Shown one piece after another: positions 34,910-50,606 of a DNA stretch of 64,000 nucleotides (positions within the stretch are counted from its first letter, which is position 1; every line of letters begins with the position of its first letter). The notes under the pieces are model-generated. The model saw only the letters and a program-made list of their open reading frames with translations. It was not told where the DNA came from and searched no databases. The DNA comes from Flavobacteriales bacterium (GTDB lineage Bacteria > Bacteroidota > Bacteroidia > Flavobacteriales_D > Parvicellaceae): positions 44,350 through 108,349 of the forward strand of contig JAOASC010000031.1 of assembly GCA_025210295.1 (NCBI GenBank). Reading direction: 5' to 3'. Made by a program: the position numbers and the translations under genes.

Positions 34910-35473
34910 CTAAACATTAATTGTTTTTTCCCGCTTCTTTTTAATCTGCGCTCTTCTTTTTAAAGCTTTTTGTTGTGCCTCTCTTACAAAGTCTTTTAAT
35001 TCAATAGATGCGTTATTCTGAGCTATTACCTTCAAGACTTCTATACCTTTGCTATAATTCTGAATATAATATTTTGGCATCTTGTTGTAGGCTGTAGAAT
35101 AAAAATTGAAACAATAGGTATGTCTTGTCCAACTTCCTCCAGACCTACTAGCTATACCTCCTCCCATTTGAGCAACTGAACTTAATGTTATTTTGTTTAT
35201 TGTATCCAACGGGTATTTTCTCCATATTTTTAAGACGATAAATTGAGACAGAATTTGAAGTTCGCCATCCTTTATGCGAATTGCACTCTGATGTACGAAT
35301 AGTCCTATTGAAACCAATAAAACAATACTTCCTAGGTATAAATTTAGAGCAGCCAATCCAAAAGAGGAAAAAAAAAGAAGAACAGCCCACCCTATATATG
35401 CTTTTGTATAGCGCTTATACACTTTTTCTAAGTTATTTATGCTTTTACTTTCTATATTTTGCTGGTATTTCAT
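34910..35473 (-). CDS. Hypothetical 2-TM membrane protein, last gene of the flotillin/AAA+ module
   Basis: Two hydrophobic helices ('AVLLFFSSFGLAALNLYLGSIVLLVSIGLFV') precede a soluble domain with a basic tail. The track ORF starts at a TTG (35542) that overlaps the upstream gene. The ATG at 35473 is the likelier start. Confidence 0.4.
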   Translation of the reverse strand: MKYQQNIESKSINNLEKVYKRYTKAYIGWAVLLFFSSFGLAALNLYLGSIVLLVSIGLFVHQSAIRIKDGELQILSQFIVLKIWRKYPLDTINKITLSSVAQMGGGIASRSGGSWTRHTYCFNFYSTAYNKMPKYYIQNYSKGIEVLKVIAQNNASIELKDFVREAQQKALKRRAQIKKKREKTINV

Positions 35474-36056
35474 CTTCCATAAAGTCCGGAACAAAAAAAG
35501 GTGGAGCTGGCGGACCTTTATGAGGTCGCTGTATTTCTTCAAATCTGAAATTGGACATTACACGATAAAACCATTTTCTTAATTCACCAGGGGTCGTCAT
35601 CAATTTAGGACGCTTTAAACTCACGGAGTTATCATCAGGATTTAATTCCAATTCTCCTGTAAAAACAAAATAATACTTAGCAAGATTATTAGGATTGGGA
35701 TCTTCTTGAAACATTGAAAAACCACAATTAAAACTAAACTTATAAGCGGTTGCAGTATATCTTATTTTTTGGAGTGCCAGGTAAGGAAAAAATTTGGGAT
35801 ACAAATTTGCATGTTGTGTCATTCTATTTACCCACTCTTTTCTTTCATCTTTTGACATGCTAGCAGTGTCTATGTCTATAAATGAAAAATCATTTTGTTG
35901 AAGTAGTTGAAACAAGCTATCGGCATAATTTAATACTAAACTTTTCTGCGATGGATTTAAAACTATGGCTTCATTTGAAGTTTCACTTTGTTGAGCGACT
36001 AGCATTAAACTCCATAAATTCAAGAGCAACGTCAGTCTTAAAATCTTTTTTCTCAT
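35445..36056 (-). CDS. Secreted or periplasmic hypothetical protein
   Basis: The signal peptide is clear ('MRKKILRLTLLLNLWSLMLVAQQ'). No recognisable domain is present. The gene is 27 nt downstream of the giant ATPase gene. Confidence 0.5.
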   Translation of the reverse strand: MRKKILRLTLLLNLWSLMLVAQQSETSNEAIVLNPSQKSLVLNYADSLFQLLQQNDFSFIDIDTASMSKDERKEWVNRMTQHANLYPKFFPYLALQKIRYTATAYKFSFNCGFSMFQEDPNPNNLAKYYFVFTGELELNPDDNSVSLKRPKLMTTPGELRKWFYRVMSNFRFEEIQRPHKGPPAPPFFVPDFMEDEIPAKYRK

Positions 36057-36083
36057 CTATAACTCTTTTTCAACCTACGCAAC

Positions 36084-39000
36084 TCAACTGCTTGCTTTCC
36101 CAATCACATTTGCGATTACTCCAAGCCCCTTGGTAATTTCTTCCATTTGCAACAAAACTTGAGCGGTTTGATTATCTTCTCCTAGACCACTCATCTTTTG
36201 GGACTTTTGATATACCTCTTTTATTACTTGCCAACGTTGAGCTTCCTCTGGAGAAAGCATCCCTTGCAATTCTTTAAATTTTAGCATATTTGCCTCTGCT
36301 CCAGTTGTTAACGTCTGGGATTCATTTTCATAATGCGATAAAATAACGGTCTGCAATTCTTTATCGTTCATGATAGGAACTAGTTTTTCTACAATTTTAT
36401 TCATATCTCTATACGAACCTTGTAGTTTAAACGGAGGCTCTGTTCTGTATTTATCTTCCTGACCTGCCGAAGCAATGTATTGCGCATTGACTTTTGTAAG
36501 TGTATCTCTTACCTGAATTACTTTTTCTAATAAGGCTGTATACTCTTTTATTTCTTGTCCCGAATGATTCCCCTCAAACGCGATCCCTTCTTGCGATCCT
36601 GTTTCTACTACTTTCAAAAAGGCGTAAACATCTTTAAAACTTTTGGCTACCAATCGTTGTAACACAGGATTAGATGTTAAACTATTTTCTATATAACTTA
36701 AATTAAACACGGCTGCTTTTCCTCCTGTAATATCTCCCAAGTTGTATATATCAGCACGATTGGAAAGCATATCGGGAATTTGAAATTTATCGCCACTTTC
36801 TGTATAAGGATTTCCAGCCATAACAATGGCTACTTTTTTCCCTCTTAAGTCATAGGTTTTACTCTTTCCTTTGTAAACTCCCTCTATTTTACGCTGCGCA
36901 TCACATAAAGAAATAAACTTTTGTAAAAACTCTGGATTACAATGCTGAATATCATCTAAATAGATCATAACATTGTCTCCCATTTCGAATGCTAAATTGA
37001 GTTTTTCGATCTCTTCTTTTGCACTTGCGTTAGGCGCCTCAGCTGGATCTAAAGAAGTAACTTGATGTCCGATAGTTGGCCCATTAATTTTCATAAACAC
37101 TAAACCTAAACGATTGGCGATATACTCCATTAATGTTGTTTTCCCGTAACCAGGAGGAGAAATTAACAATAACATCCCCATAAGGTCTGTTCGTTTATTC
37201 TCTCCAGCCGCTCCCATTTGCTTCGCAAGGTTATCTCCTATTAATGGGAAATACACTTCATCTATCAGTTTATTACGGACAAACGACGTCATTACTTTGG
37301 CCTTAAATTCATGTAAACGAAGCTCGTCTTTAAATGCGTGAATGATCTCTTTTTTTAGGGTTTGGTATTGCTCAAACTTTGGAACACTTACCGTTTTAAA
37401 ATCATACATTTTTGCATAAAAGCGATTGTAGTCAAAATCATAATCTGCATCAACGACAGTATGATTTCCTTGAAAACCGGTTAATTTCTGCCCTGTTTTT
37501 ACTTTAATCACCTTTGGCTTATCTTGATCTGAAGATATTACTGAAATTGCAACCTCTTCTACATAAGCTTTTAAGTGCATATTCTTTGGAGTCGCTTCTA
37601 AATATGCATTTAACCAATTTTGCATTAACAAAATCTGACTGACTGCAGATGCATCAACAGAATTTAAAGATTGATTGAATATTTTCTTTGCATTTACTTT
37701 AGTTAAATAGAGGTTAAACTGATCGTACAGTTCTAGCGCTTCCTGACTCAGGATAAATTGATCTCCTCGACACACTTCTTCAAACAGATAATTTGCAGCA
37801 TCAGTTATATTTGCCGCTGTATAGAGGTTGGTTTCCATCACAAAAGACTCCATCAGTTGAACCAGAGTTGTTTTTAGCTGTTTAAATTCATTGGTTTCGG
37901 GGAAAACTTCTATGACAACTCCTGCTGCTTTTAATCGAGCATTTAGCGCTTCTTTTTGTGGTACATCAATATATTTTTCCCAGAAAAACTTTGCGCAAGC
38001 TCTTTCATAACTGCTATACACCAATAAATCAGCATGTTTAGCTATAGTTAACGCTGTTTTAAGAATCAAATGAGCATCTACATCATGAATTCCTTTGGCA
38101 TAGCCTTCCTCATATTTACTAGCCATTAGCTGCTGCACAATAGCCAATTGCTCTTTTTCTTCAAGCATTAAAAATTCAGTTTCAGAAACGGGCTCCTTGA
38201 TGGCTAGTTTCTGTAGAATTTGATAGGCTAAATACTCCGCTCTATATACCTGTTTATTTTCTGAAATATAAGCTTGATCCCAAACGGATTCTGTTGCTAA
38301 AAACTCTGGATTAGTTACAGGCTCAAAATAATTCGTTCCTGTTAAATGAAAACACATTTCCCCATTTTTTAAAACAATGGTTAAATCCAACGGTTGGGTA
38401 TTGACCGAAAATTGATGCTTCCCCATCTGAATAATATCTTTCCCATCAACAAACAGCTCAGTTTTATCTTTTAGCTGTCGGAGCGCATCTTCTTTTACGG
38501 TTTTAAACTGACTTTGTACATCATCGGCCTTAACAGCATCTTTTAATTCGATTAATTGCGCTATAATATCACGGATTTTTCCAACCATGATATCAGAAGC
38601 AAAATAGCCATTTATTTCGACTGGTGTTTTAAAATTGGCTACCCTATTTTTAATCCCTTTTAGTATTCTCTCCGCCGATTGTTGTAGTGTAGTAGCGCGT
38701 TTATTACGACTTTCAATTAAAGCAATTTTTCGCGATTCAAAGGCGTTGTATACTTCTTCACGTTTCTCTCCTACCAGGGTAATAAACTCATCAAACTCCG
38801 AAAACTTACCCTCTAGCTCTTCGAGTTGCACCATGAGTTTGGTTAAATACTCATCACATTTTTCAGGAGTTTCAGAAATATCCAAAAAGTTAACCACACT
38901 TTGACTAATTAACTTAATTTGACTATTGAACTCTGCCTTTCCTTCTCGTCCTAATAATACTTTACGTTTTTTCTTAAGTGCTGCATTGATTTGGTTAAAC

Positions 39001-40967
39001 TGTGCATAAATATCAGAAATAGCGTCGATAATCTTAGTTGTTTGCGTAGCATCCTCAATTTTTAAATTACTAACAATCTCTATCAACAATTCCAACTCAG
39101 CAGAAACCGCTAAAACTTTATTTTCTAATTCATTAGCATCTACAACTTTCTCTAATTGACCAATTGTTGTTTTTAAACCGTCTACCTTAACTAAATAGGG
39201 AGCAAGCGATTTCTCGTCTAACAAAAACTGAACACAACGCTGTGATATATCTTCTTGATGTTGGGCTATTTGCTGATCTAATTCCTCTACTAAATCAACT
39301 TCAACATAACGTAATTCTTTTAATTGTATAATACTTCCTCTAACGCCTCTTATCTCTCCCAAAACCTCAACAAAATGATCAATTAAATCGAAGTTTTTAA
39401 TTTTAATCGCACGCAATAAGTTTGCTACAATTTCTTGTGTTCTTTGTGTTTCTTCTAGTGTATGTTGTTTTACTTTTACAACTTTATCAAACTCATCAAT
39501 AGCTGAGGAAGCTGATTCTTTAATCGCTACTAAAGGCTCATGAATATCGGCTACTGTTATGCTATCAATCCAATGATAAGTATCCAAGACATCGTTGGCT
39601 CCCTTTACAATATCTAGGTATAAATTGGCGTAAGAATCTTCTTTGTAAATCAAACGAATCACCTCATTACATTCTGACATTGCTTTAACAATATCTTTAT
39701 TTCCTATCTTTTGTAATTCAGAATCGTTTTTTTCTGCTGGAACGAAACTATGATCTAAAAATGGTGTTTGCCAAATTTGAACCGCGTGATGCTTTTTTTG
39801 TTCATCATCATTCTTAAAGAAACACATTTCTCCATTGTCAAAAATAGAATAACCGTGGCAAATAATAGGGGTTTCTACTTTCTGTTCAATAATGTTGTAA
39901 CTTAACAAGATATATACTCCTGACACTTCATTGTAAAACACATAAAGAAAATCCTCACCATTGGGTGATGCAATTCTTTTTTCGAAAATCATATTTTCTA
40001 ATTGATTTTCGAACAGTTTATATTCCCCTGATTGCAGGTAGTAACCTTTAGAAAAAATCAGTCCATGGTCGTCTGGTAGTAACACTCCTGATTTTTCTAA
40101 TGCATCTATCCGTGTAACCGTTTTGATTTTATTGTTAAAAACCAAATAGCGGAACTCTTTTTCTTGATAGGGTTGTATTTTTAAAACAACTAGATTTCCA
40201 ACTACAGCGTAGTAAACTAAAGCATCGTCTAAGGTTTGGTCTTTATTCGCTACTGGCTCTGTATAAATGCCTTTTCCTGAAGCGGTATTGTCTTCAATTT
40301 TTATTGTTAAATCCCCTCCTACTGTTTCAACAAAAACAAGATCTTCGATAGAAATATGTGGATGTTCTCCGCTTACATGCTGGTCTCTTGTTGTTTTGAT
40401 CCATTGAAACTCATGTTGTTCAGGATATGCAAGTTCGTATTCAGAACGGTTATCAACATAAATTAATTGTTGGCCTTTAACATTCCATTTAAATGCCTTA
40501 ACATCGTTTACAGAATTTCCTACTTGAAAGACAAAATACAGGAAAGGACCTTGTTCTACAAACTTTAAAAACTCTGCATTTTTATAATACTTATAAAGAT
40601 TATGAAAATCTGTTTGAAACGCTTCGTCGTTAATTAAATCATACGCAATTGGAGTAAAGTTATGATCGGCATACGCATACAGACTAAAAACATCACTGAT
40701 CTTAATTTCAGTTCGAAGGCCTATATGTACATTGTACCCAAAAATAAAGGCGTCTCCAACTGGAACCATATCACGAGGTAAACAATTGTTTTCTGTAGTA
40801 ATTCGCTCAGTAGAGACTAATGCTGTTTCTATGGCTCCAAAAACATTTTTACGTTCAACATTTAACGCGTGTAATTGCTCTTGTAATTGCTTTCCATGTT
40901 TAGATAAACGATCCCTAATGATTTCGTAAGTACCGCCCTCCAATTGTATTTCTTCGTTACGCTCCAT
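36084..40967 (-). CDS. Giant (1627 aa) protein with an N-terminal beta-rich region, a long central coiled-coil or helical region and a C-terminal MoxR/AAA_5-like AAA+ ATPase domain
   Basis: Walker A 'LISPPGYGKTTL' (around nt 37117-37151), Walker B 'VMIYLDDIQH' and a sensor-1 region 'VAIVMAGNPYTESGDKFQIPDMLSNRADIY' resemble the MoxR/dynein-related AAA_5 clade. The central 400 aa or so are heptad-rich. Confidence 0.7.
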   Translation of the reverse strand: MERNEEIQLEGGTYEIIRDRLSKHGKQLQEQLHALNVERKNVFGAIETALVSTERITTENNCLPRDMVPVGDAFIFGYNVHIGLRTEIKISDVFSLYAYADHNFTPIAYDLINDEAFQTDFHNLYKYYKNAEFLKFVEQGPFLYFVFQVGNSVNDVKAFKWNVKGQQLIYVDNRSEYELAYPEQHEFQWIKTTRDQHVSGEHPHISIEDLVFVETVGGDLTIKIEDNTASGKGIYTEPVANKDQTLDDALVYYAVVGNLVVLKIQPYQEKEFRYLVFNNKIKTVTRIDALEKSGVLLPDDHGLIFSKGYYLQSGEYKLFENQLENMIFEKRIASPNGEDFLYVFYNEVSGVYILLSYNIIEQKVETPIICHGYSIFDNGEMCFFKNDDEQKKHHAVQIWQTPFLDHSFVPAEKNDSELQKIGNKDIVKAMSECNEVIRLIYKEDSYANLYLDIVKGANDVLDTYHWIDSITVADIHEPLVAIKESASSAIDEFDKVVKVKQHTLEETQRTQEIVANLLRAIKIKNFDLIDHFVEVLGEIRGVRGSIIQLKELRYVEVDLVEELDQQIAQHQEDISQRCVQFLLDEKSLAPYLVKVDGLKTTIGQLEKVVDANELENKVLAVSAELELLIEIVSNLKIEDATQTTKIIDAISDIYAQFNQINAALKKKRKVLLGREGKAEFNSQIKLISQSVVNFLDISETPEKCDEYLTKLMVQLEELEGKFSEFDEFITLVGEKREEVYNAFESRKIALIESRNKRATTLQQSAERILKGIKNRVANFKTPVEINGYFASDIMVGKIRDIIAQLIELKDAVKADDVQSQFKTVKEDALRQLKDKTELFVDGKDIIQMGKHQFSVNTQPLDLTIVLKNGEMCFHLTGTNYFEPVTNPEFLATESVWDQAYISENKQVYRAEYLAYQILQKLAIKEPVSETEFLMLEEKEQLAIVQQLMASKYEEGYAKGIHDVDAHLILKTALTIAKHADLLVYSSYERACAKFFWEKYIDVPQKEALNARLKAAGVVIEVFPETNEFKQLKTTLVQLMESFVMETNLYTAANITDAANYLFEEVCRGDQFILSQEALELYDQFNLYLTKVNAKKIFNQSLNSVDASAVSQILLMQNWLNAYLEATPKNMHLKAYVEEVAISVISSDQDKPKVIKVKTGQKLTGFQGNHTVVDADYDFDYNRFYAKMYDFKTVSVPKFEQYQTLKKEIIHAFKDELRLHEFKAKVMTSFVRNKLIDEVYFPLIGDNLAKQMGAAGENKRTDLMGMLLLISPPGYGKTTLMEYIANRLGLVFMKINGPTIGHQVTSLDPAEAPNASAKEEIEKLNLAFEMGDNVMIYLDDIQHCNPEFLQKFISLCDAQRKIEGVYKGKSKTYDLRGKKVAIVMAGNPYTESGDKFQIPDMLSNRADIYNLGDITGGKAAVFNLSYIENSLTSNPVLQRLVAKSFKDVYAFLKVVETGSQEGIAFEGNHSGQEIKEYTALLEKVIQVRDTLTKVNAQYIASAGQEDKYRTEPPFKLQGSYRDMNKIVEKLVPIMNDKELQTVILSHYENESQTLTTGAEANMLKFKELQGMLSPEEAQRWQVIKEVYQKSQKMSGLGEDNQTAQVLLQMEEITKGLGVIANVIGKASS

Positions 40968-41109
40968 GGCTTTATCTTGCTTGGTCTGCTCCTCTTTAGT
41001 CCAGTTAAGTATTCAGGAACAGTTCCTATTTTCTTTCTCCTGTTTATTAACACACGATGAACTCCATTAAAAACATAGAAAAAGGTATTGATTTTCTCTT
41101 GATGAATAA

Positions 41110-41131
41110 CCCAGCAGTATCAACTGCTGGG
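41110..41131 (-). terminator. Perfect 8-bp hairpin (CCCAGCAG-tatcaa-CTGCTGGG) between the flotillin stop and the giant ATPase gene. It may be an attenuator or a partial terminator
   Basis: It lies 24 nt downstream of the flotillin stop on the transcribed strand, in a 187-bp gap. The following U-tract is weak. Confidence 0.3.
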
Positions 41132-41154
41132 CTGAATAAATTATTTGATGATTT

Positions 41155-43299
41155 TTACATCAAATCCTTGGCATTGGTATCTCCTAAACCTGTTTTAGCA
41201 ACAAATTCAATTAACTGTGATAACAATCCTTTATCTTTTGACGATTGTGAGTCGTTCATTAACTTAAACAATAAAGAAGAAACGGTAAAGTTTTTAATAT
41301 CCTCTGATCCTAATCCAGATTGAGCAATTAATCCTTTTATCTTATCTACAACAGTACTCCCATCTTCTGTATTCATCAATTGATTTTTTACCTCATTAAT
41401 GACAGTACTTTTATCTGAGTATTGATCGATAGCTTTGGCATTTGAAATCGCTCCCATAATCTTATCAAAGAATACTGGCTCTCCACCAACGATATCGATA
41501 TTTGCTGATTTTAAAGCACTTGACAACACTTCTGCTTGAGCAGCTGCAATATCTTTTTGGATATTAATTTGTGCTAATTCTATTTCTTTTTCTTTAGCTA
41601 ATTTCAACTTAAACTCTTCATGCTCTTTACCTACACCATCAAGTTTTTTCATAGCTGCAGCTTTCTCCTCAATTCCTTTTGCTTCTGCTTCAAACTTTTT
41701 AGTCATTACATTCGCTTCTGTTAAGCCTTTTTCTTCCTGCGCTTTAGCTTTAGCTTTGATAACGTCAGCCTCTGCAACACCGATATTTGTATTCGCTTTG
41801 GCTTGAGCCATTGACTTCATCTCAATTCCTTTCGCTTCTGCTTCTGCTGTTGCTTCAATCACAGCTGCCTGCGCATTTCCTTGTTCTTCGGTTCCTTCTG
41901 CTTTAGCTTTCATCACTTTAGCTTCCGACAATCCAATTGCTGCTTTTTGAGTAGCTTCGGCATCTGCTAAAATTTTAATTGCTTCTGCTTCTTGATTAGC
42001 TGCTTGCATTTTAGCTTCTGCATCTATAATACGTTTCTTTGCTTCATATTCGGCTGCTTGTTGTGATGCTTCGGCTGCTTTTATTTGTTGAACTAATTGC
42101 TCTTGAGCTAATTTTTCAGCATTGGTAATTGCAACCGATTTTAAACGATCTGCTTCTGCAAATGCTTTGGTATCTTTTATTTTTTCTTCTTCATCAACAA
42201 CTGTCTTTTCAATTGCAACACGTTCTCTAATCGTTTCTTGAATGTTTTTACGTTCTACCTCTATTGCTTTTTCTTTTTCAATTTGAGCTAAGGTCACAAT
42301 ACGTTCTCTTTCGTTCATTTCAAGCGCTCTATCTTTTTCTACACGCTCGGCCTCCACAGCCATTGTTCGCTCTTTATTCTTTTCTGCTACAACAATTTGT
42401 CTGTTTTTATTCTCCTCTGCAACTTGAACTTCTTCGTCGGTAGCTATTCTAGCTTTTTCAGCTTTAAGACGCTCTTCTTGATTAACCTTTTCTATTTCAG
42501 CTGATTCTCTAGCTTTGATATTGGCAATTTCACGTGCTTGCTTCTCTTCTTTTTCAGCCAATTGACGTTCCATTTCCAAAATAGCTTCTCGTGTTTCTAC
42601 ATTTTGCTGTGTGATGATTTTTTCCTCATCTCTTTGGATTTGATTAGCTAAAATCTTTTGTTTAGCTGTTAACTCTGTAATTTTCTTAATCCCTTCAGAA
42701 TCTAAAATATTATTTGGACTTAGTGCATTGATATTTGTTTGCTCTAAATAATCAATTGCTGCATCATCTAATCGGTAACCGTTTAAATCTGTTCCAATAA
42801 TATCGATAATGGCTAATTTAAATTTTTCACGTTCGTTGTATAAATCAACAAAATCGATCTGCTTTCCTACGGTTTTTAAAGCTTCAGAAAACTTTGCTTC
42901 AAACAGTTCTATTATTGCTTGTTTTGATGCTGCTCTAGCACATCCAACTGATTGTGCAACCTTTATCACATCTTCTATTGATTTATTTACGCGAACAAAA
43001 AAAGCTACTTTAATATCAGCACGCATATTATCGGCACAAATTAAACCATCCGAACCACTACGTTCAATGACAATGTTCTTTAAGGAAATATCCATGATCT
43101 CTAATTTGTGTAAAACGGGGATCACTAAAATACCTCCAAACGAAACCTTGGTTCCGCCAACACCTGTTCGCACTAAAGCTTGCCCTTGTGCAGCTTTTTT
43201 ATAAAACCTAGAAATAATTGCAAAAGTCCCTAATAAGACTACTGCGATAACAATTGTAACAACTACAAAAACGTTTCCAAATAACTCTGATGTATCCAT
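41155..43299 (-). CDS. Flotillin-family protein (SPFH/band-7 domain plus long Ala/Glu-rich flotillin repeats), YqiK/FloT-like
   Basis: An N-terminal TM segment and an SPFH domain ('VRTGVGGTKVSFGGILVIPVLHKLEIMDISL') are followed by about 350 aa of EA-rich coiled coil ('AEAKGIE...'). Confidence 0.85.
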   Translation of the reverse strand: MDTSELFGNVFVVVTIVIAVVLLGTFAIISRFYKKAAQGQALVRTGVGGTKVSFGGILVIPVLHKLEIMDISLKNIVIERSGSDGLICADNMRADIKVAFFVRVNKSIEDVIKVAQSVGCARAASKQAIIELFEAKFSEALKTVGKQIDFVDLYNEREKFKLAIIDIIGTDLNGYRLDDAAIDYLEQTNINALSPNNILDSEGIKKITELTAKQKILANQIQRDEEKIITQQNVETREAILEMERQLAEKEEKQAREIANIKARESAEIEKVNQEERLKAEKARIATDEEVQVAEENKNRQIVVAEKNKERTMAVEAERVEKDRALEMNERERIVTLAQIEKEKAIEVERKNIQETIRERVAIEKTVVDEEEKIKDTKAFAEADRLKSVAITNAEKLAQEQLVQQIKAAEASQQAAEYEAKKRIIDAEAKMQAANQEAEAIKILADAEATQKAAIGLSEAKVMKAKAEGTEEQGNAQAAVIEATAEAEAKGIEMKSMAQAKANTNIGVAEADVIKAKAKAQEEKGLTEANVMTKKFEAEAKGIEEKAAAMKKLDGVGKEHEEFKLKLAKEKEIELAQINIQKDIAAAQAEVLSSALKSANIDIVGGEPVFFDKIMGAISNAKAIDQYSDKSTVINEVKNQLMNTEDGSTVVDKIKGLIAQSGLGSEDIKNFTVSSLLFKLMNDSQSSKDKGLLSQLIEFVAKTGLGDTNAKDLM

Positions 43300-43322
43300 G
43301 TTTTTTATCTATTTATTTTTTA

Positions 43323-43976
43323 TTAATGATTATACTTTTCTACGAGGAAATAATCCTCTTCTTTAATGTGGTCTAAGACCAAAACTTTATCTCCTTTTTT
43401 TACAGACGCTGCACTTTCGTGTGTTTTAATAAAAATGGTAAAGAATGACTCTCCAACCATTACATCTGCTTGTCCTTTTTGAGTTGAACTAGCCCCTAAT
43501 CGAACCTCTCCAATAGCGCCAATAAGATCATCTTCATCACTTTCTTTTTCTAATACTGCAAATAGTTTTACAAAAGGTGTTGTAAAGATTTTTGCAACAA
43601 ATAAACTCACAATAAAGATGGGAACTAACAAGGCTAAACTGAGGAGGAATGAAGTATTTCCTAAAATGTGATTAGACATTACCGACAACACCCACATTGG
43701 TATAGCCAAAAAAGTTAAAAACACCATAAAAGGAATTTTACCCAAATTAAAAAAGGCTAATATTTTATTTAAGGCAAATAAATTTGAGGCTGAATTCCCT
43801 TCTACTTCAATATCTGCATCCACATCTATGTCAGCGTCTATCTCTACATCAAAGTCTAAAAAATCGGTATCAACTGCTCCGATCAAGACAATCAACCAAT
43901 AGAACAGTACCAACACAAAAAGGGTTGTCGGGATAAAATTTACTCCCGAAAAAACAATATTTATTAATTCGTTCAT
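43323..43976 (-). CDS. YqiJ/NfeD-like membrane protein (DUF1449-type) paired with flotillin
   Basis: The protein has an N-terminal TM segment, an Asp-rich acidic loop ('DTDFLDFDVEIDADIDVDADIEVEG'), further TM helices and a C-terminal soluble beta domain. It lies directly upstream of the flotillin gene, as in yqiJ-yqiK. Confidence 0.6.
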   Translation of the reverse strand: MNELINIVFSGVNFIPTTLFVLVLFYWLIVLIGAVDTDFLDFDVEIDADIDVDADIEVEGNSASNLFALNKILAFFNLGKIPFMVFLTFLAIPMWVLSVMSNHILGNTSFLLSLALLVPIFIVSLFVAKIFTTPFVKLFAVLEKESDEDDLIGAIGEVRLGASSTQKGQADVMVGESFFTIFIKTHESAASVKKGDKVLVLDHIKEEDYFLVEKYNH

Positions 43977-43984
43977 TGTTCTTT

Positions 43985-44380
43985 TTATTGATGTGAGAAA
44001 TTAATCAAATCAGAAGCGTGCTCTGACAATAACAGACTCAAAGAATTTATACTTCCTTCAAGTTCGTTAAGATCTAAATTCTCCAATTGCAAGGTATCTC
44101 TAAAAATAACTTTGGTTCCTGTTTCATCTAATGTAAACGCTCCATGAATAATTGTTCTATTTTTTTCTAATAAAAACTTCAATGCCTCGATATTTGAAGC
44201 ATCTATTTCAAATAAAAATTGTTCTAAAATCAATATGGGGTTGGCACATCCAATCACTAAATTTTGCAATCCAAACTCTGGTTGATTGATTACAAAAACT
44301 TCGTCATCTGCATTTTCAAAGGTAATGTTATGCTCCAACTCTATTAAGTAGTTTTTTATCTTTTCGAAATGTGTCTTCAT
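43985..44380 (-). CDS. YbjN-domain protein (131 aa), paralog A
   Basis: Size and motifs ('PILILEQFLFE', 'RDTLQLENLDLNELEGSINSLSLL') fit YbjN. It is clearly paralogous to 50097..50492. Confidence 0.6.
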   Translation of the reverse strand: MKTHFEKIKNYLIELEHNITFENADDEVFVINQPEFGLQNLVIGCANPILILEQFLFEIDASNIEALKFLLEKNRTIIHGAFTLDETGTKVIFRDTLQLENLDLNELEGSINSLSLLLSEHASDLINFSHQ

Positions 44381-44521: not shown

Positions 44522-46117
44522 TCAATAAATTTTCCAATTTCCTTTTTTGTAGTAGGTATACAACACTGGGTTAAACAAGGTATTGACTGCTGTATTTGTA
44601 GTATCCACCATCGGCTTCCCAAACAATGTTATTGCTTTTGAAGCATCATTATTCAACCATTCTAAATCAAGTTTATCATAATCAAAATTAATCATCTTTT
44701 GTTTTAGCGCTGTTGAAGAATACTGTTTACTTCCCATAATCCAACCCCACTCTCCCATGGTTAAAATTTGACTATGCAATGGCAATGTATTAAACCCACC
44801 TGCTCGCATGCTTTTTTCAACACAATAAAATGCTTTACTAGCATAATAAGGGCTCCCCGCCTGAGTTATTATCGCTCCACTTTTTGTTAATCGTTGACTA
44901 CATAAGAAGTAAAATTCTCTGGTATATAATTTATTCAAATCTACATTGTTAGGATCTGGTAAATCAATAATAATAACATCATACAATATTTTATTATGTT
45001 CTAAAAACTGAAAAGCATCTTCGTGTTTAATCGTTACTTTTTGATGGTTTAAAGCTCCCTTATTCATCTCAAGAAACAACTCATTTTCCTTAGCCAGCTC
45101 TGTCATTTTCGGGTCTAAATCAACTAACGTTATCTCTTCTATGTCTTTATAGTTTAACAATTCTCGCACTGCACATCCATCTCCTCCTCCTAATACTAAT
45201 ACTCTTTTTTTGTTTTCTACAACATTAACTACTGGATGCACCAAAGGCTCATGATACATATATTCATCAAAAGAGGATAATTGTAAATTTCCATTAATAA
45301 ACAACGAGTAATTATCCTGCCATTGAGTCATGACTATTTTTTGATATTGTGTTTCTGTTTGGAACACTATTTTATCTCGATATTTTTTTTGATCTCCATA
45401 CAACACTATTGGTTTAGCAAAATACAATCCTACAAAAATTACAACTCCAACAACCATAAACCAAACCGTTAATATTTTTCTATATTTTTCACTGATTACT
45501 TTTCTTAGGTATAAAAAAGTAAACAATGCTACTGTAAAATTTAACAGTCCTAAGACAAAAGGAGTATATGTTAATCCTAAAAAAGGCATACCTACAAAAG
45601 CAAAAAACAATCCACCGACTAAGCTCCCATAATAATCTTTTTCTAAAACTGAAGCTACATTTACTTTTAGCTCTTCAAACTCCTCATTTAATCTTGTTAC
45701 TAAAGGAATTTCTAAGCCTATTAATAACCCCACAACAATAGACAAGGCGTAAATAAATACTGGAGAATATCTCCCATAGGTAATGTATACAGCTAACGCA
45801 CAAAAAGAAACTAAAAAGGAAAGAATCAGTTCTAAGTAAATAAACTTAACCAACAACTCTTTTTCTATCAACTTGCTTAACCGACTTCCAAATCCCATTG
45901 CAAAAAGCATGGTGGACACAATTAAAGCAAATTGAACTACAGCATTCCCAATAAAATAAGAAGCTAACGTTGATAAGACATATTCTGCTACAATACCACT
46001 TATTCCTGTAGCAAACAATGCTATTTTAAGAACTGCCGACTTTCGTTTATTTGTTTGATCTACTACGCTCAATTTATTTTCTTTTTTTAAAGCGTCCAAT
46101 CCAATAATATAGAGCAT
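44522..46117 (-). CDS. speE: Polyamine aminopropyltransferase (spermidine synthase family) fused to an N-terminal polytopic membrane domain
   Basis: About 220 aa of TM helices are followed by the spermidine synthase core ('VLVLGGGDGCAVRELL', 'ITLVDLDPKM', 'DVIIIDLPDP'). Confidence 0.85.
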   Translation of the reverse strand: MLYIIGLDALKKENKLSVVDQTNKRKSAVLKIALFATGISGIVAEYVLSTLASYFIGNAVVQFALIVSTMLFAMGFGSRLSKLIEKELLVKFIYLELILSFLVSFCALAVYITYGRYSPVFIYALSIVVGLLIGLEIPLVTRLNEEFEELKVNVASVLEKDYYGSLVGGLFFAFVGMPFLGLTYTPFVLGLLNFTVALFTFLYLRKVISEKYRKILTVWFMVVGVVIFVGLYFAKPIVLYGDQKKYRDKIVFQTETQYQKIVMTQWQDNYSLFINGNLQLSSFDEYMYHEPLVHPVVNVVENKKRVLVLGGGDGCAVRELLNYKDIEEITLVDLDPKMTELAKENELFLEMNKGALNHQKVTIKHEDAFQFLEHNKILYDVIIIDLPDPNNVDLNKLYTREFYFLCSQRLTKSGAIITQAGSPYYASKAFYCVEKSMRAGGFNTLPLHSQILTMGEWGWIMGSKQYSSTALKQKMINFDYDKLDLEWLNNDASKAITLFGKPMVDTTNTAVNTLFNPVLYTYYKKGNWKIY

Positions 46118-46965
46118 CCTACATAAGCAAACGCTTCTACTAATCCTGCTCCAACATTAGGCTTCTCCTGATTCACCAATTCATCTGTTAGTTTTTGCCC
46201 TGGCAACAGCAACTTATCTGCCACCACCCTTACAACTGGTAAAATGGCTAATGCAATAACAGAGTTATACAAAATAGAATAAGCCGAAACCTCCCAAGAA
46301 ATAAAATCTCCTTGAATCCCATGTCTTATCAAATTTGCGATCGATATAATTACCCCAGAATAGGCTATTCCAACAGCAAAGTTATTTTTCTTAATCTCAT
46401 CTAATAGGCTAAAATTTAATATTGCATTATATACAAAAGTTGAAAGTACAAACATTAGCATTCCTACTCCCCAAAAAATTATTGTACTTAAAAACCCATT
46501 GATCACATCATGGTGACTATCTCCCGATACTGCACCATATATAATTAATCCAGTAGCAACAGAAATTGCAGCCTCTAAAACTCCTACCCCAACATTCTGA
46601 TCTTCAACTAATTCATGCTTTAGATTCATCCTTCTAAGAATCAAGAAGTCATTCAATACAATACTCAAGTTAAGTAATATAATACTAATCAAAGCATACA
46701 AAGAAAAATCAGTTAGATCGTCTACCAAATTACCTGTTGTTCCTCCAGTAAGTGCACCTCCCAACGCGATCACAATACCCGACAAGTACCCAACATTGGC
46801 AAAAGCAAAAGCAAAATTATCTTGTTCTACCAATTCATGGTTCATATCAATTTCTTTATGCAATAATTGATAAACTTTCCTGCTAACAACTAAAAAAAAT
46901 AAACTTAAAATTGTATAAGCAAATGTTGCAAAATAACTATCGGGATTTGTAAAAAATTCGTTCAT
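46087..46965 (-). CDS. Membrane protein with two DUF350-like repeats
   Basis: Two hydrophobic modules of about 130 aa each contain 'NVGYLSGIVIALGGALTG' / 'AVGIAYSGVIISIANLI' and 'HELVEQDN' / 'HELVEDQN'. The gene overlaps the speE start by 31 nt. Confidence 0.6.
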   Translation of the reverse strand: MNEFFTNPDSYFATFAYTILSLFFLVVSRKVYQLLHKEIDMNHELVEQDNFAFAFANVGYLSGIVIALGGALTGGTTGNLVDDLTDFSLYALISIILLNLSIVLNDFLILRRMNLKHELVEDQNVGVGVLEAAISVATGLIIYGAVSGDSHHDVINGFLSTIIFWGVGMLMFVLSTFVYNAILNFSLLDEIKKNNFAVGIAYSGVIISIANLIRHGIQGDFISWEVSAYSILYNSVIALAILPVVRVVADKLLLPGQKLTDELVNQEKPNVGAGLVEAFAYVGCSILLDWTL

Positions 46966-46967
46966 AA

Positions 46968-47480
46968 TTAATTTCCTGGTAATAATTTATCTATTGCAAA
47001 TGGGTTGATCTTTTTTCCTAAATGCGCTTCAAACTCAAATTTACTCCATCGTTCAATACATATAAACTCGTCTTTTTCATTCCAATACATCCAAGAAGTT
47101 AATTCTGACCAGCCTTCTGCCCCTTCTTTTTGATACTCTCCAAAAGCTTCCTCATCTAATTTATACACCTCGCTGTTATAGATTAAGTTTTCAGGAACGG
47201 AGGCATAAGTTAAAACTTCATCTTTAAAACGAGGTGCCACCTTAAGGATTTCAGCTGGCACTGTCATATACAATACACCATCATCAGCCACCTCTAAAAA
47301 AAGCACCGAACTACCATCGCTGAGTTTATACTCTCTAGATTTAAAATTGTTTTCCCATAGGTAGTGGTAAACCTCTTGTACTACCCAGTTTTTCATATCA
47401 TACTCCAAAGTAGCCCCAATAGTTAAATTATGAAGTGTTGCCTCAACCGGCTCCTCTTTTTTCTTAAAAAATCCAAACAT
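46968..47480 (-). CDS. DUF4178-like soluble protein
   Basis: The N-terminal 'L.IGATLEYDMKNWVVQEVYHY.WENNFKSREYKL' is paralogous to the N-terminus of the next gene. Confidence 0.5.
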   Translation of the reverse strand: MFGFFKKKEEPVEATLHNLTIGATLEYDMKNWVVQEVYHYLWENNFKSREYKLSDGSSVLFLEVADDGVLYMTVPAEILKVAPRFKDEVLTYASVPENLIYNSEVYKLDEEAFGEYQKEGAEGWSELTSWMYWNEKDEFICIERWSKFEFEAHLGKKINPFAIDKLLPGN

Positions 47481-48276: not shown

Positions 48277-48277
48277 A

Positions 48278-48652
48278 TTATTTGTTAAAACTTGGGGTTA
48301 ATTGATTAATTGTTCCTCTTTTTACTTCTTTTAACTCCATTATCTCTGCTTCAAATATCGTTTTAATATACGCTAATGCCTCTGTTAATTCATAAGATTC
48401 ATTACATGTAAAAAAATCTAATGCTACATACTTGTATTCTGGCCAAGTATGAATGGCTATATGACTTTCTTTAATCACAATAACCCCACTTACCCCAATT
48501 GGGTTAAAATGATGTATTGTTGTATTCACAACAGATAAACTGGCGATTTTCGCAGCTTCTAATAACGTTTTTTCTACAAGAGCTGTGTCATTGATTTTTT
48601 TAGCATCACAACCATGTAATTCAATTAATGTATGAAAACCAAGCGTCTGCAT
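48278..48652 (-). CDS. speD: S-adenosylmethionine decarboxylase proenzyme (pyruvoyl-dependent, SpeH/SpeD class 1)
   Basis: The processing and active-site motif 'VIKESHIAIHTWPE' is present, with self-cleavage at the E-S bond. The 124-aa size fits the family. Confidence 0.8.
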   Translation of the reverse strand: MQTLGFHTLIELHGCDAKKINDTALVEKTLLEAAKIASLSVVNTTIHHFNPIGVSGVIVIKESHIAIHTWPEYKYVALDFFTCNESYELTEALAYIKTIFEAEIMELKEVKRGTINQLTPSFNK

Positions 48653-49186: not shown

Positions 49187-49369
49187 CAACCTTTAAGTAA
49201 CTCCAAATGCTTTTAACAATTCGGCTCATCATTTTAAAAAACGGAAAAATAATTTTATCGAAAAAAAATCCGGAAAAAGATGAACAACAATATCTAAAAA
49301 CAGCTCCAGCAACATTTTATAAAAAGTCTAACAAACCATAGCGTTTGTTAGACTTCTAGTTATTAGAAA

Positions 49370-50492: not shown

Positions 50493-50606
50493 AAGTCGTA
50501 ATTAAATTTTTTATAAATCTACAAACAACTAATTAATTTAGCAAGAAAAAACTAATATTTTTTGCATTTATTTTGTTTGACCACATTTTTTACTAACTTT
50601 GTTGGC

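What the first reader, a model, noticed from the sequence alone, without database searches (positions are those of the whole stretch)
34910..44380. Operon joining YbjN-like, YqiJ/NfeD-like and flotillin genes to a 1627-aa MoxR/AAA_5-type ATPase giant and two small envelope proteins
The order on the minus strand is: YbjN-like (131 aa), YqiJ/NfeD-like membrane protein with an Asp-rich loop, a 714-aa flotillin, a perfect 8-bp hairpin, a 1627-aa protein, a signal-peptide protein and a 2-TM protein. The first three match the known yqiJ-yqiK / NfeD-flotillin pairing. The hairpin-to-2-TM gene spacing is 27 nt and a 29-nt overlap. The 1627-aa protein has a single C-terminal AAA+ module with a Walker A 'SPPGYGKTT', Walker B 'IYLDDIQ' and an 'AGNP...SNRAD' sensor region typical of the MoxR/McrB/dynein-related AAA_5 clade. 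That module is preceded by about 400 aa of coiled coil and a large N-terminal beta-rich region. I know of no characterised flotillin/NfeD system that includes such a giant single-AAA+ protein. By position it looks like a dedicated mechano-enzyme for a flotillin/NfeD membrane microdomain. This is a candidate undescribed membrane-remodelling, defence or stress system.
Basis: partly seen in the sequence, partly recalled or inferred. Interest (0 to 1): 0.85.

Follow-up and report, generated by a model that had tools for sequence, protein, structure and literature searches.

The report
Known flotillin–NfeD–giant AAA+ ATPase operon
The genes are real and the giant ATPase is tightly linked to flotillin and NfeD genes across at least seven bacterial phyla, but this operon type was already described by comparative genomics in 2020/2024 as part of the phage-shock (PspA) envelope-stress repertoire, and it has never been tested experimentally.

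Summary
The region is the downstream half of a roughly 16-kb minus-strand array: a divergent HTH regulator, then CesT/Tir-PspA, a polyamine module, a second CesT/Tir, YqiJ/NfeD, flotillin and the 1627-aa ATPase. The giant belongs to a defined family (Pfam DUF3686 + DUF7902 + AAA+), with more than 5,000 homologues.

Linkage holds in both directions:
- 57 of 60 giant-anchored genome loci carry flotillin just upstream.
- 62 of 64 flotillin-anchored metagenome loci carry the giant just downstream.

This neighbourhood is already published (Ravi et al., mSystems 2024, with Dokdonia donghaensis as the example). No experimental study was found.

- **Catalytic motifs:** invariant across phyla, with an unusual Asp-Asp Walker B.
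- **AAA+ clade:** MoxR/AAA_5 versus classical AAA could not be settled.
- **Two small downstream genes:** not a conserved part of the system.
- **Defence:** nothing supports this reading.

The most likely role, by inference, is a cytoplasmic ATP-driven remodeller of flotillin/NfeD (and PspA) membrane assemblies. I rate it a new member of a known, uncharacterised kind, of moderate interest.

The parts
50562..51344 (+). Divergently transcribed HTH_3 (XRE-type) regulator
   Evidence: Pfam HTH_3 at 2.8e-7. A homologous divergent gene occurs in 21 Bacteroidota loci (cluster 4). The supplement of Ravi et al. calls it 'cHTH+Protease'.
50097..50492 (-). CesT/Tir-like small chaperone, paralogue 1 (heads the PspA dyad)
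   Evidence: Pfam CesT_Tir_1 at 3.9e-50. It is 56% identical to the copy at 43985-44380.
49370..50068 (-). PspA/IM30 (bacterial ESCRT-III-like protein)
   Evidence: Pfam PspA_IM30 at 4e-43.
49324..49355 (-). 13-bp perfect hairpin followed by TTTTATAAAA, just after the PspA stop. It looks like an intrinsic terminator or attenuator.
   Evidence: Terminator scan and direct reading of the sequence.
48653..49189 (-). 2-TM protein with no family assignment
   Evidence: ORF. Two hydrophobic segments. No Pfam match. No homologue in related loci.
48278..48652 (-). S-adenosylmethionine decarboxylase
   Evidence: Pfam AdoMet_dc at 7.6e-38.
47524..48276 (-). DUF4178 protein with a C-terminal TM segment
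   Evidence: Pfam DUF4178 at 7.6e-20. Hydropathy scan.
46968..47480 (-). DUF4178 protein, second copy
   Evidence: Pfam DUF4178 at 4.1e-19.
46087..46965 (-). DUF350 (YjfL family) polytopic membrane protein
   Evidence: Pfam DUF350 at 7.7e-53. Seven hydrophobic segments.
44522..46117 (-). 7-TM domain fused to a spermidine/spermine synthase (polyamine aminopropyltransferase)
   Evidence: Pfam Spermine_synth at 6.8e-37. NCBIfam PRK03612 at 3.9e-167, above its cut-off. Seven N-terminal hydrophobic segments.
43985..44380 (-).
   Evidence: Pfam CesT_Tir_1 at 1.7e-51 and YbjN at 7e-5.
43323..43976 (-). YqiJ/YuaF-type short NfeD membrane protein (3 TM, acidic loop, soluble C-terminal domain)
   Evidence: BLASTP against E. 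coli YqiJ gives E 2e-6. Three hydrophobic segments. Homologues lie directly upstream of flotillin in 53 of 60 loci.
41155..43299 (-). Flotillin (N-terminal TM, SPFH/Band-7 domain, long Ala/Glu-rich coiled coil, C-terminal tail)
   Evidence: 32% identity to E. coli YqiK, E 3e-50. Band_7 at 1.8e-8 on the N-terminal 240 aa. Majority-residue conservation is about 0.7 across phyla.
41110..41131 (-). 8-bp perfect hairpin (11 bp as RNA) in the 187-nt flotillin-giant spacer. No U-tract follows.
   Evidence: Sequence. RNA fold, z = -3.2. Other loci carry variable inserted genes in this spacer.
36084..40967 (-). 1627-aa cytoplasmic ATPase with DUF3686, DUF7902 and a single C-terminal AAA+ module
   Evidence: Pfam DUF3686 at 4.6e-191, DUF7902 at 2.3e-25, AAA and AAA_5. 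No TM segment. More than 5,335 homologues. Full-length representatives are mostly about 1500-2040 aa, with the DUF3686 domain at the N-terminus in nearly all of them.
39573..40886 (-). DUF3686 domain (aa 28-465), predicted beta-propeller-like
   Evidence: The AF2 model has about 26 strands in aa 64-370 at pLDDT roughly 60-80. The best Foldseek matches are 7-bladed propellers: Sec12 at E 1.9e-4, prolyl oligopeptidase and the clathrin terminal domain.
38463..39719 (-). Helical rod (aa 417-835, includes DUF7902 at 587-669)
36723..37295 (-). AAA+ core (aa 1225-1415): Walker A K1276, Walker B D1338-D1339, sensor-1 N1386, R1404
   Evidence: These residues are invariant in 34 sequences drawn from the phyla sampled. 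It is the most conserved part of the protein, 0.85.
35445..36056 (-). 203-aa signal-peptide protein, specific to this organism and not part of the conserved system
   Evidence: ORF. No family. The only homologue is in L086, the same organism.
34910..35473 (-). 187-aa 2-TM protein, lineage-specific
   Evidence: Two hydrophobic segments. One 52%-identical homologue lies directly downstream of the giant in the close relative L085. Absent from the other loci.

Best explanation
The region is the distal half of a PspA-type envelope-stress gene array. Its conserved core is the triad short NfeD (YqiJ/YuaF type), flotillin and giant DUF3686-AAA+ ATPase. In Bacteroidota this triad is preceded by a CesT/Tir-PspA dyad and a divergent HTH regulator.

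Shown:
- The identities of the genes.
- The fixed architecture of the giant: N-terminal helix, propeller-like domain, helical rod, second helical domain and one AAA+ module, with no membrane segment.
- Invariance of its nucleotide-binding residues.
- Near-obligate cis-linkage to this flotillin subfamily in both directions.

Inferred:
- Flotillin and NfeD build a membrane-anchored cage or microdomain on the cytoplasmic face, as solved for other SPFH and SPFH-NfeD complexes.
- The giant oligomerises through its AAA+ module, probably as a hexamer.
- It docks on the cage, and in Bacteroidota also on PspA polymers, through its propeller and rod.
- It spends ATP to assemble, open or disassemble these structures, or to release clients held in them. 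That would be the ATP-dependent step that flotillin/NfeD holdase activity and bacterial PspA otherwise lack.
- The CesT/Tir proteins act as small chaperones or adaptors.

In this window a polyamine module is inserted between the PspA dyad and a duplicated CesT/Tir gene. This merges two published operon classes into one array that probably holds several transcription units.
For: - Gene identities.
- Giant-anchored survey of 80 genome loci spanning Bacteroidota, Planctomycetota, Verrucomicrobiota, Desulfobacterota, Clostridia, Omnitrophota and Kiritimatiellota: of 60 loci with at least 3.2 kb upstream, 57 have flotillin and 53 also have NfeD, on the same strand and in the same order.
- Flotillin-anchored survey of 80 metagenome loci: 62 of 64 with at least 1.5 kb downstream carry the giant.
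- CesT and PspA lie upstream only in Bacteroidota loci: 21 and 22 of 58.
- The giant has no TM segment.
- Full-length family members are mostly about 1500-2040 aa, with DUF3686 at the N-terminus in nearly all of them.
- K1276, D1338-D1339, N1386, R1404 and R1520 are invariant, and the AAA core is the most conserved region.
- The N-terminus is propeller-like and the middle is a spectrin-like rod.
- The same neighbourhood, with a membrane-dynamics reading, is published (PMC11237479).
- From papers: SPFH and SPFH-NfeD proteins form cytoplasm-facing cages, and S. aureus FloA-NfeD stabilises unfolded proteins without ATP (PMC13086221 and PMC11222466). A 2025 review states that a Vps4-like ATPase for PspA appears absent in bacteria (PMC7619361).
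Against: - No experiment bears on any step of the mechanism.
- The linkage is not absolute. Three close relatives (89, 85 and 78% identical giants) carry the gene alone among unrelated genes. The closest metagenomic flotillin (about 81-82% identity) stands alone too. Three of 60 genome loci lack flotillin upstream.
- Walker B is Asp-Asp rather than Asp-Glu. By general knowledge of AAA+ enzymes, this may mean slow hydrolysis, or switching rather than motor action.
- I saw no canonical aromatic pore loop after strand 2 (my own reading), which weakens a threading or unfoldase model.
- The AAA+ model was poor (pLDDT 60), so oligomeric state and clade are not established.
- The primary partner could be PspA, NfeD or a membrane client rather than flotillin itself.
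Confidence: 0.55

Rival explanations
1. The giant is a MoxR-like chaperone ATPase. It helps insert, mature or activate a membrane complex, for example by loading clients into the flotillin/NfeD cage, rather than disassembling polymers.
For: Pfam AAA_5 covers Walker A through sensor 1 (2-125 of 139, E 3.5e-7, above its cut-off). The stretch DDIQHCNPEFLQKF...RKIEGVYKG..KTYDL...VMAGNPYTESG.KF.IPDMLxNRAD has the spacing typical of MoxR and dynein-type modules (my own reading). The model predicts a beta-hairpin before the sensor-1 strand. Some sources label homologues 'MoxR-like ATPase'.
Against: hhalign against E. coli RavA gives only 20% probability and covers only Walker A to Walker B. PDB profile hits are p97, Rix7 and RuvB over the Walker A stretch only. 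No VWA partner gene, the usual MoxR companion, is present in the window or recurrent in the loci. The structural search was uninformative.
Confidence: 0.2
2. The array is an anti-phage or abortive-infection defence system. The giant ATPase senses infection and the flotillin/PspA components execute or buffer membrane damage.
For: The gene is a large single NTPase with a repeat-type sensor-like domain. The family is fairly rare, with 743 representatives at 50% identity. Linkage has broken down in close relatives. The flotillin-giant spacer collects variable small genes, including DUF559-type endonuclease-like ORFs.
Against: PADLOC gives only marginal P-loop matches (E 0.0016 and 0.0033) and nothing for the other five proteins. 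No nuclease, protease, TIR, Sir2 or pore effector is present. Sequence conservation is unusually high for a defence gene: 45-58% identity over 1,600 aa across phyla, with fixed gene order. The neighbours are polyamine, PspA and Usp stress genes, not a defence island.
Confidence: 0.07
3. The protein is a DNA repair ATPase, as NCBI and Pfam names say, and its position next to flotillin has no functional meaning.
For: The Pfam description of PF12458 is 'ATPase involved in DNA repair'. Many sources name homologues 'DNA repair ATPase'. There are weak RuvB_N and RuvB P-loop matches.
Against: The RuvB matches cover about 45 residues around Walker A, far below the family cut-offs (23 bits against 282). 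No DNA-binding or nuclease domain was found. No recurrent DNA-repair neighbour appears in 160 loci, whereas the flotillin/NfeD linkage is 57/60 and 62/64. No paper in the library mentions DUF3686 or PF12458.
Confidence: 0.03
4. The giant mainly serves PspA, as a Vps4-like disassemblase for the ESCRT-III-like polymer, and flotillin/NfeD only provide the membrane platform.
For: PspA and CesT/Tir precede the triad in 21-22 of 58 genome loci. In the flotillin-anchored set, 41 of 58 loci have PspA upstream. The window holds PspA in the same array. Reviews note that no Vps4 equivalent is known in bacteria.
Against: Outside Bacteroidota the triad occurs without PspA nearby, so the universal partner is flotillin/NfeD. 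In the window, PspA is separated from the triad by seven genes and a terminator-like hairpin. No MIT-like domain was detected.
Confidence: 0.15

Closest known systems
CesT/Tir-PspA + YqiJ/YuaF + Band-7/flotillin + 'beta-propeller + coiled-coil + AAA-ATPase' operon class of Ravi, Anantharaman, Aravind, Gennaro et al. (mSystems 2024, PMC11237479; example Dokdonia donghaensis ANH61663.1)
   Same: The gene families are the same and in the same order, with the same divergent HTH regulator (and for my own loci). The paper also notes PspA-free abbreviated versions, which matches what I see outside Bacteroidota.
   Different: In the window the PspA dyad is separated from the triad by a polyamine module, and the CesT/Tir gene is duplicated (56% identity). 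None of the other 160 loci showed this layout. In four genome loci the polyamine genes lie downstream of the giant instead, as in three metagenome loci. The published description is a neighbourhood prediction only.
Second operon class in the same paper: CesT/Tir-PspA with 7TM-spermine synthase, DUF350 (YjfL), DUF4178 and a lipoprotein
   Same: 7TM-SpeE, DUF350 and two DUF4178 genes follow CesT/Tir-PspA in the window.
   Different: I did not detect the Ctha_1186-type lipoprotein. An AdoMet decarboxylase and a 2-TM protein are present. The module is fused to the flotillin class in one array.
E. coli yqiJ-yqiK and B. subtilis yuaF-floT (short NfeD + flotillin operons)
   Same: Homologous pair in the same order: YqiK 32% identity, YqiJ 23% identity.
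   Different: E. coli has no third gene. sibD/ibsD follow yqiK. The window's flotillin is 714 aa against 553 aa and belongs to a subfamily that is almost always followed by the giant.
HflK/C-FtsH and prohibitin-m-AAA protease (SPFH cage working with an AAA+ machine)
   Same: An SPFH-family scaffold is functionally coupled to an AAA+ ATPase (literature seen).
   Different: FtsH is membrane-anchored, carries a protease domain and is a classical-clade AAA. The giant is soluble, has no protease domain and has a different N-terminal architecture. A physical coupling has not been shown here.
ESCRT-III with Vps4 (MIT domain + AAA ATPase)
   Same: A polymer-forming membrane protein (PspA is ESCRT-III-like) is encoded with an ATPase that has an N-terminal recognition domain and a C-terminal AAA+ ring module. 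Ravi et al. draw this analogy for other PspA-AAA+ pairs.
   Different: There is no MIT domain, no homology beyond the generic AAA+ fold, the protein is four times larger, and it is linked primarily to flotillin/NfeD rather than to PspA.
MoxR-family AAA+ (RavA-ViaA, CbbQ, NorQ) and the Pfam AAA_5 class
   Same: The motif spacing from Walker B to sensor 1 and the AAA_5 profile match. NorQ, CbbQ and Mdn1 are among the weak structural hits.
   Different: No VWA partner. hhalign to RavA gives 20%. Walker B is DD rather than DE. Membership is unresolved.

Membership tests
Ravi et al. 2024 flotillin class of PspA operons | CesT/Tir-PspA dyad | tested here: met
   CesT_Tir_1 at 50097-50492 (3.9e-50) is directly followed by PspA_IM30 at 49370-50068 (4e-43).
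Ravi et al. 2024 flotillin class of PspA operons | [quoted passage not shown] | tested here: met
   N-terminal TM segment. Band_7 at 1.8e-8. YqiK at 3e-50.
Ravi et al. 2024 flotillin class of PspA operons | 3-TM YqiJ/YuaF-type protein | tested here: met
   Three hydrophobic segments. YqiJ BLASTP E 2e-6. The Pfam YqiJ_N match is below its cut-off.
Ravi et al. 2024 flotillin class of PspA operons | AAA+ ATPase with N-terminal beta-propeller and coiled coil | tested here: met
   DUF3686 + DUF7902 + AAA. Propeller-like and spectrin-like matches, from a model of moderate confidence. The supplement gives the same architecture for Dokdonia.
Pfam PF12458 (DUF3686) / PF25472 (DUF7902) giant ATPase family | Profile match above the gathering score, and a full-length architecture of roughly 1500-2040 aa | tested here: met
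   635.6 bits against a cut-off of 25, and 89.1 bits against 26. Full-length representatives are mostly about 1500-2040 aa, with the domain at the N-terminus in nearly all.
AAA+ superfamily (functional ATPase) | Walker A GxxGxGK[ST], Walker B hhhhD[DE], sensor-1 polar residue, Arg finger, sensor-2 Arg | tested here: met
   PPGYGKTT, (I/V)DDIQH, MAGN, NRAD and QGSYR are invariant in 34 sequences from the phyla sampled. Walker B is D-D, not D-E. Assigning R1404 as the finger and R1520 as sensor 2 is by position only.
MoxR / AAA_5 (helix-2-insert, pre-sensor-1 hairpin clades) | Pre-sensor-1 beta-hairpin and helix-2 insert | tested here: inconclusive
   A hairpin at model residues 171-184 precedes the sensor-1 strand, but pLDDT there is below 50. 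The Foldseek hits mix all AAA+ clades at TM about 0.2.
MoxR / AAA_5 (helix-2-insert, pre-sensor-1 hairpin clades) | Profile similarity to MoxR-type modules | tested here: inconclusive
   AAA_5 scores 30.7 bits (cut-off 22) over 2-125 of 139. However, hhalign to RavA gives 20% probability, and there is no PDB sequence match to the Walker B-to-sensor region.
MoxR / AAA_5 (helix-2-insert, pre-sensor-1 hairpin clades) | Adjacent VWA-domain partner gene | tested here: not met
   No VWA family among the window's operon genes, and none among the recurrent neighbour clusters.
Classical AAA clade (p97, FtsH, Vps4) | Second region of homology with paired arginines, and a full PF00004 match | tested here: not met
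   PF00004 aligns only positions 1-72 of 131. PDB hits stop about 40 residues after Walker A. Only one Arg lies in the NRAD segment.
Known anti-phage defence systems (PADLOC-DB v2) | Significant match of any component to a defence-system model | tested here: not met
   There are only P-loop-level matches of the giant (mad8 at 0.0016, IetA at 0.0033). The other five proteins match nothing.
   No such Pfam family matches at E <= 0.01. The NTPase is AAA+.
Short NfeD (YuaF/YqiJ) family | C-terminal OB-fold soluble domain | not tested
   Only sequence similarity to the C-terminal part of YqiJ was seen. No structure was predicted for this protein.

The most novel reading that the evidence does not exclude
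The DUF3686-AAA+ giant is the missing energy-consuming partner of bacterial flotillin/NfeD cages, and in Bacteroidota of PspA polymers. It would be a roughly 1.1-MDa hexamer whose propeller-tipped, spectrin-like arms grasp the cage and whose unusual Asp-Asp Walker B ring opens or recycles it. That would make it a bacterial counterpart, in role but not in ancestry, of Vps4 for ESCRT-III or of FtsH inside HflK/C. My evidence does not exclude this. It rests on linkage and architecture only.
Probability: 0.3. Interest if true: 0.8.

Novelty: new member of a known kind. Interest (0 to 1): 0.4.

Why it matters
How bacterial flotillin microdomains and PspA/ESCRT-III-like polymers are assembled, opened and recycled is an open question. 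A 2025 review states that no Vps4-like ATPase is known for bacterial PspA. S. aureus flotillin-NfeD is reported to act without ATP.

A soluble AAA+ protein that is almost always encoded directly after one flotillin subfamily, across at least seven phyla, is the obvious candidate for an ATP-dependent step. It can be tested in cultivable Flavobacteriia.

The candidate was already pointed out in print, so this window adds three things rather than a discovery:
- an instance of the operon with an unusual merged layout;
- quantified two-way linkage;
- the observation that the 'DNA repair ATPase' name in databases has no support.

Tried and rejected
- **AlphaFold2 on aa 1190-1627** with an 8-row alignment gave pLDDT 60, with the AAA core at 40-60. 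The Foldseek search that followed returned only weak, mixed AAA+ hits. I draw no clade conclusion from it.
- **Profile of 34 C-terminal modules against PDB sequences** matched only the Walker A stretch. A profile limited to Walker B through the Arg finger matched nothing meaningful.
- **hhalign to E. coli RavA** was weak. I did not go on to other single-sequence templates, because one-sequence profiles are too insensitive.
- **PADLOC** returned nothing usable.
- **NCBIfam** had no model for the giant, flotillin, NfeD or CesT proteins.
- **Rfam and tRNA scans of the window** were empty.
- **Literature searches** for DUF3686 and PF12458 gave zero papers. Searches combining flotillin, NfeD, AAA+, PspA and ESCRT-III found no experimental study of this ATPase.
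- **Sigma-70 promoter scan** found fewer sites than shuffled controls (49 against 66). It is not suited to Bacteroidota promoters, so I did not use it.
- **The two small downstream genes as system components** were considered and rejected, because they are absent from related loci.
- **SMC-like or dynamin-like identity** was considered and rejected.

Full report
**1. What is in the sequence**

- The 131-aa product (43985-44380) matches Pfam CesT_Tir_1 over its whole length (E 1.7e-51). It matches YbjN only weakly (7e-5).
- The 217-aa product (43323-43976) has three hydrophobic segments and an acidic loop. Its Pfam YqiJ_N match is below the cut-off. It aligns with E. coli YqiJ at 23% identity over 148 aa, E 2e-6.
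- The 714-aa product (41155-43299) gives no Pfam match when scanned whole. Its first 240 residues match Band_7 (1.8e-8). The whole protein is 32% identical to E. coli YqiK over 444 residues, E 3e-50.
- The hairpin CCCAGCAG-ttgata-CTGCTGGG lies at 41110-41131, starting 23 nt after the flotillin stop. As RNA it extends to 11 pairs, and the 190-nt spacer folds better than shuffles (z = -3.2). No U-run follows it.
- The 27-nt gap and the 29-nt overlap at the distal end are as stated, provided the last gene starts at the ATG at 35473.

**2. The array is longer than the finding**

Upstream on the same strand lie the following genes:

- a 7TM-spermidine synthase fusion (44522-46117; NCBIfam PRK03612, 3.9e-167);
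- DUF350 (46087-46965);
- two DUF4178 genes (46968-47480 and 47524-48276);
- AdoMet decarboxylase (48278-48652);
- a 2-TM protein (48653-49189);
- PspA (49370-50068; 4e-43);
- a second CesT_Tir_1 gene (50097-50492; 3.9e-50).

An HTH_3 regulator is transcribed divergently (50562-51344). The two CesT/Tir paralogues are 56% identical.

A 13-bp perfect hairpin followed by TTTTATAAAA sits just after the PspA stop. Gaps of 141 nt and 187 nt precede the second CesT/Tir gene and the giant. The array probably holds several transcription units. That is an inference from sequence alone.

**3. The giant protein**

- **Family matches.** It matches Pfam DUF3686 (aa 28-465, E 4.6e-191), DUF7902 (587-669, 2.3e-25) and AAA+ profiles near 1266-1389. 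It has no hydrophobic segment.
- **Homologues.** A word-indexed search found more than 5,335. The best 120 are all about 1620-1850 aa and 54-100% identical over the full length. Sources name them 'DNA repair ATPase', 'AAA family ATPase' or 'MoxR-like ATPase'.
- **N-terminal domain.** An exhaustive search with aa 1-480 found only 743 representatives at 50% identity. Full-length members are mostly about 1500-2040 aa, with the domain at the N-terminus in nearly all. The architecture is therefore essentially fixed, and the domain is essentially confined to this family.
- **Model of aa 1-1195** (mean pLDDT 67.6), in order along the chain:
  - a helix at 11-52;
  - about 26 strands between 64 and 370;
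  - long helices at 417-835;
  - a small beta unit;
  - a second helical domain at 905-1145.

**4. The AAA+ module**

I aligned 34 C-terminal modules drawn from the phyla sampled. The following are invariant (the same residues are flagged):

- Walker A SPPGYGKTT (K1276);
- Walker B (I/V)DDIQH (D1338-D1339);
- MAGN (N1386);
- NRAD (R1404);
- QGSYR (R1520).

Walker B is Asp-Asp rather than the usual Asp-Glu. That this is unusual rests on my general knowledge of AAA+ enzymes. The AAA core is the most conserved part of the protein: majority-residue frequency 0.85, against 0.65 for the propeller and 0.44 for the second helical domain.

The clade could not be settled.

- Pfam AAA_5 aligns across 124 of its 139 positions (3.5e-7). 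Classical AAA aligns only to its first 72 of 131.
- Against PDB sequences, both the single protein and the 34-sequence profile match only about 40 residues around Walker A of p97, Cdc48, Rix7 and RuvB.
- A profile restricted to Walker B through the Arg finger matches nothing.
- hhalign to E. coli RavA gives 20% probability.
- The model of aa 1190-1627 was poor (pLDDT 60), and its Foldseek hits mix all clades at TM about 0.2.

By eye, the spacing DDIQHCNPEFLQKF...KIEGVYKG..KTYDL...VMAGNPYTESG.KF.IPDMLxNRAD resembles MoxR and dynein-type modules. That is a lead, not a test. No VWA partner gene is present.

**5. Linkage**

I scanned one genome per species with conserved peptides of the family. 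This gave at least 585 confirmed loci, and the best 80 were kept. They come from Bacteroidota, Planctomycetota, Verrucomicrobiota, Desulfobacterota, Clostridia, Omnitrophota and Kiritimatiellota, at 45-85% identity over the whole protein. I searched their ORFs iteratively with the window's proteins.

| Survey | Eligible loci | Result |
|---|---|---|
| Giant-anchored genome loci, at least 3.2 kb upstream | 60 | 57 have flotillin directly upstream on the same strand; 53 also have the NfeD gene before it |
| Giant-anchored genome loci, at least 7 kb upstream | 58 | 21 have CesT/Tir and 22 have PspA, all from Bacteroidota |
| Flotillin-anchored metagenome loci (52-81% identical flotillins), at least 1.5 kb downstream | 64 | 62 carry the giant on the same strand |

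Among the Bacteroidota loci with CesT/Tir or PspA, 21 also have a divergent HTH regulator homologous to the window's.

There are exceptions. Three genome loci lack flotillin upstream. More telling are the giants closest to the window's (89, 85 and 78% identical). They stand alone between unrelated genes: pheT-acyltransferase ... PAS/GerE, or DUF6962 | giant-HisKA. The closest metagenomic flotillin (about 81-82% identity) also stands alone, between a TPR-SpoIIE gene and T9SS cargo genes. So the genes can work from separate loci.

The flotillin-giant spacer often holds variable, unrelated small ORFs, in 23 loci.

**6. The two small downstream genes**

- The 203-aa signal-peptide protein has no homologue in any of the 160 loci. 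It appears only in the 17.9-kb ENA contig that is essentially the same organism.
- The 2-TM protein has one 52%-identical homologue, directly after the solitary giant of a close relative (L085), and none elsewhere.

They are lineage-specific additions, not parts of the conserved system.

**7. Comparison with what is known**

Ravi, Anantharaman, Aravind, Gennaro and colleagues published this in mSystems in 2024 (PMC11237479; bioRxiv DOI dated 2020). They describe a conserved operon that combines CesT/Tir-PspA with three further genes:

[quoted passage not shown] - a 3-TM YqiJ/YuaF protein.

They add that abbreviated versions without PspA are more widespread. Their supplementary table gives the Dokdonia donghaensis context, with the same order and the divergent 'cHTH+Protease' gene. 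They describe a second class with 7TM-spermine synthase, DUF350 and DUF4178.

The window joins both classes in one array, with a duplicated CesT/Tir gene. I did not see this layout in any other locus. In four genome loci the polyamine genes lie after the giant instead, as in three metagenome loci.

I found no experimental work on the ATPase. No paper mentions DUF3686 or PF12458, and broader searches returned nothing on it.

It is met only in a weak sense: the family is named and its neighbourhood is published, but it is not characterised.

**8. How it most likely works**

Shown: the gene identities, the fixed architecture, the invariant nucleotide-binding residues, a soluble protein, and two-way linkage to one flotillin subfamily.

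From the literature:
- SPFH proteins, alone or with NfeD, form cages that protrude into the cytoplasm. HflK/C works with the AAA+ protease FtsH.
- S. aureus FloA-NfeD stabilises unfolded proteins without ATP.
- A Vps4-like ATPase for bacterial PspA has not been identified.

Inferred: the giant oligomerises through its AAA+ module. It uses the propeller and rod to reach flotillin/NfeD cages, and in Bacteroidota also PspA polymers. It spends ATP to open, recycle or load them. I give this general role about 0.55. I place specific variants lower:

| Reading | Confidence |
|---|---|
| MoxR-like maturation chaperone | 0.2 |
| PspA-centred disassemblase | 0.15 |
| Defence | 0.07 |
| DNA repair | 0.03 |

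The Asp-Asp Walker B and the lack of an obvious aromatic pore loop argue for caution about a threading mechanism.

**9. Verdict**

It is wrong about novelty and about the two small genes, and unproven about the MoxR clade and defence. This is a new member, with an unusual merged layout, of a published but experimentally untouched operon type. Interest is moderate (0.4).

Noticed in passing
window 44522-50492 (minus strand): A second CesT_Tir_1 paralogue (50097-50492, 56% identical to the one in the finding) heads PspA and a polyamine module: a 2-TM protein, AdoMet decarboxylase, two DUF4178 genes, DUF350 and 7TM-spermidine synthase. The window therefore fuses two published PspA operon classes into one array. 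None of the 160 related loci showed this layout.
   Followed up: yes
window 49324-49355: A 13-bp perfect hairpin followed by TTTTATAAAA lies directly after the PspA stop codon. It looks like an intrinsic terminator or attenuator that would separate the CesT/Tir-PspA dyad from the rest of the array.
   Followed up: partly
L083, L084, L085 (giants 85, 78 and 89% identical) and L087 (flotillin about 81-82% identical): In the closest relatives the operon has come apart. The giant sits alone among housekeeping genes, and the closest metagenomic flotillin sits alone between a TPR-SpoIIE phosphatase gene and T9SS cargo genes. A different 85% relative (L001) still has the flotillin C-terminus upstream, with a DUF559-like ORF inserted in the spacer.
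   Followed up: partly
giant protein aa 1338-1339 (window 36951-36956): Walker B is Asp-Asp, not Asp-Glu, in all 34 sequences aligned across phyla. It is an invariant departure from the usual catalytic glutamate of AAA+ enzymes.
   Followed up: partly
flotillin-giant spacer in L005, L006, L008, L012, L017-L019, L023, L028, L029, L032, L033, L035, L041, L043, L046, L049, L053, L059, L063, L064, L075 and L078: In 23 of the genome loci the spacer between flotillin and the giant is 0.5-2.4 kb long. It holds unrelated, mostly singleton small ORFs, mostly on the same strand, including DUF559 endonuclease-like genes. The spacer looks like an insertion hotspot.
   Followed up: partly
window 41155-43299: The full-length flotillin gets no Pfam hit at all, even at E <= 10. 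Its N-terminal 240 aa alone match Band_7 at 1.8e-8. The long Ala/Glu-rich coiled coil apparently triggers HMMER's bias filter, so automated annotation could miss this gene.
   Followed up: yes
homologues of window 36084-40967 in public databases: The widespread name 'DNA repair ATPase' (NCBI; the Pfam PF12458 description) has no support in domain content or gene neighbourhood. The only DNA-related signal is a sub-threshold RuvB P-loop match of about 45 residues.
   Followed up: yes
window 51472-53089: Next to the divergent regulator lie a membrane protein with a GIDE domain (PF12483, 8.7e-34) and a tandem universal stress protein (Usp, 6.5e-32). These are further stress-related neighbours of unknown relation to the array.
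   Followed up: no
window 26297-34871 (plus strand): Three large type IX secretion cargo proteins converge on the end of the array: PKD repeats with CHU_C; SprB repeat with PKD and Por_Secre_tail; and a 1262-aa DUF7948 ... Por_Secre_tail protein. They confirm a Bacteroidota (Flavobacteriales-like) origin.
   Followed up: no
L086 15276-15840 compared with window 34910-35473: In the near-identical ENA contig (3x coverage) the 2-TM gene is split into two ORFs by a frameshift relative to the window. This is either an assembly error or a sign of weak constraint on the gene.
   Followed up: no
L005, L009, L038, L041 (also L088, L100, L119): In several Bacteroidota loci the polyamine module (DUF4178, a low-complexity lipoprotein-like gene, DUF350, 7TM-SpeE and sometimes AdoMetDC) lies immediately downstream of the giant rather than upstream of the triad. 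The two modules associate repeatedly but in different orders.
   Followed up: partly
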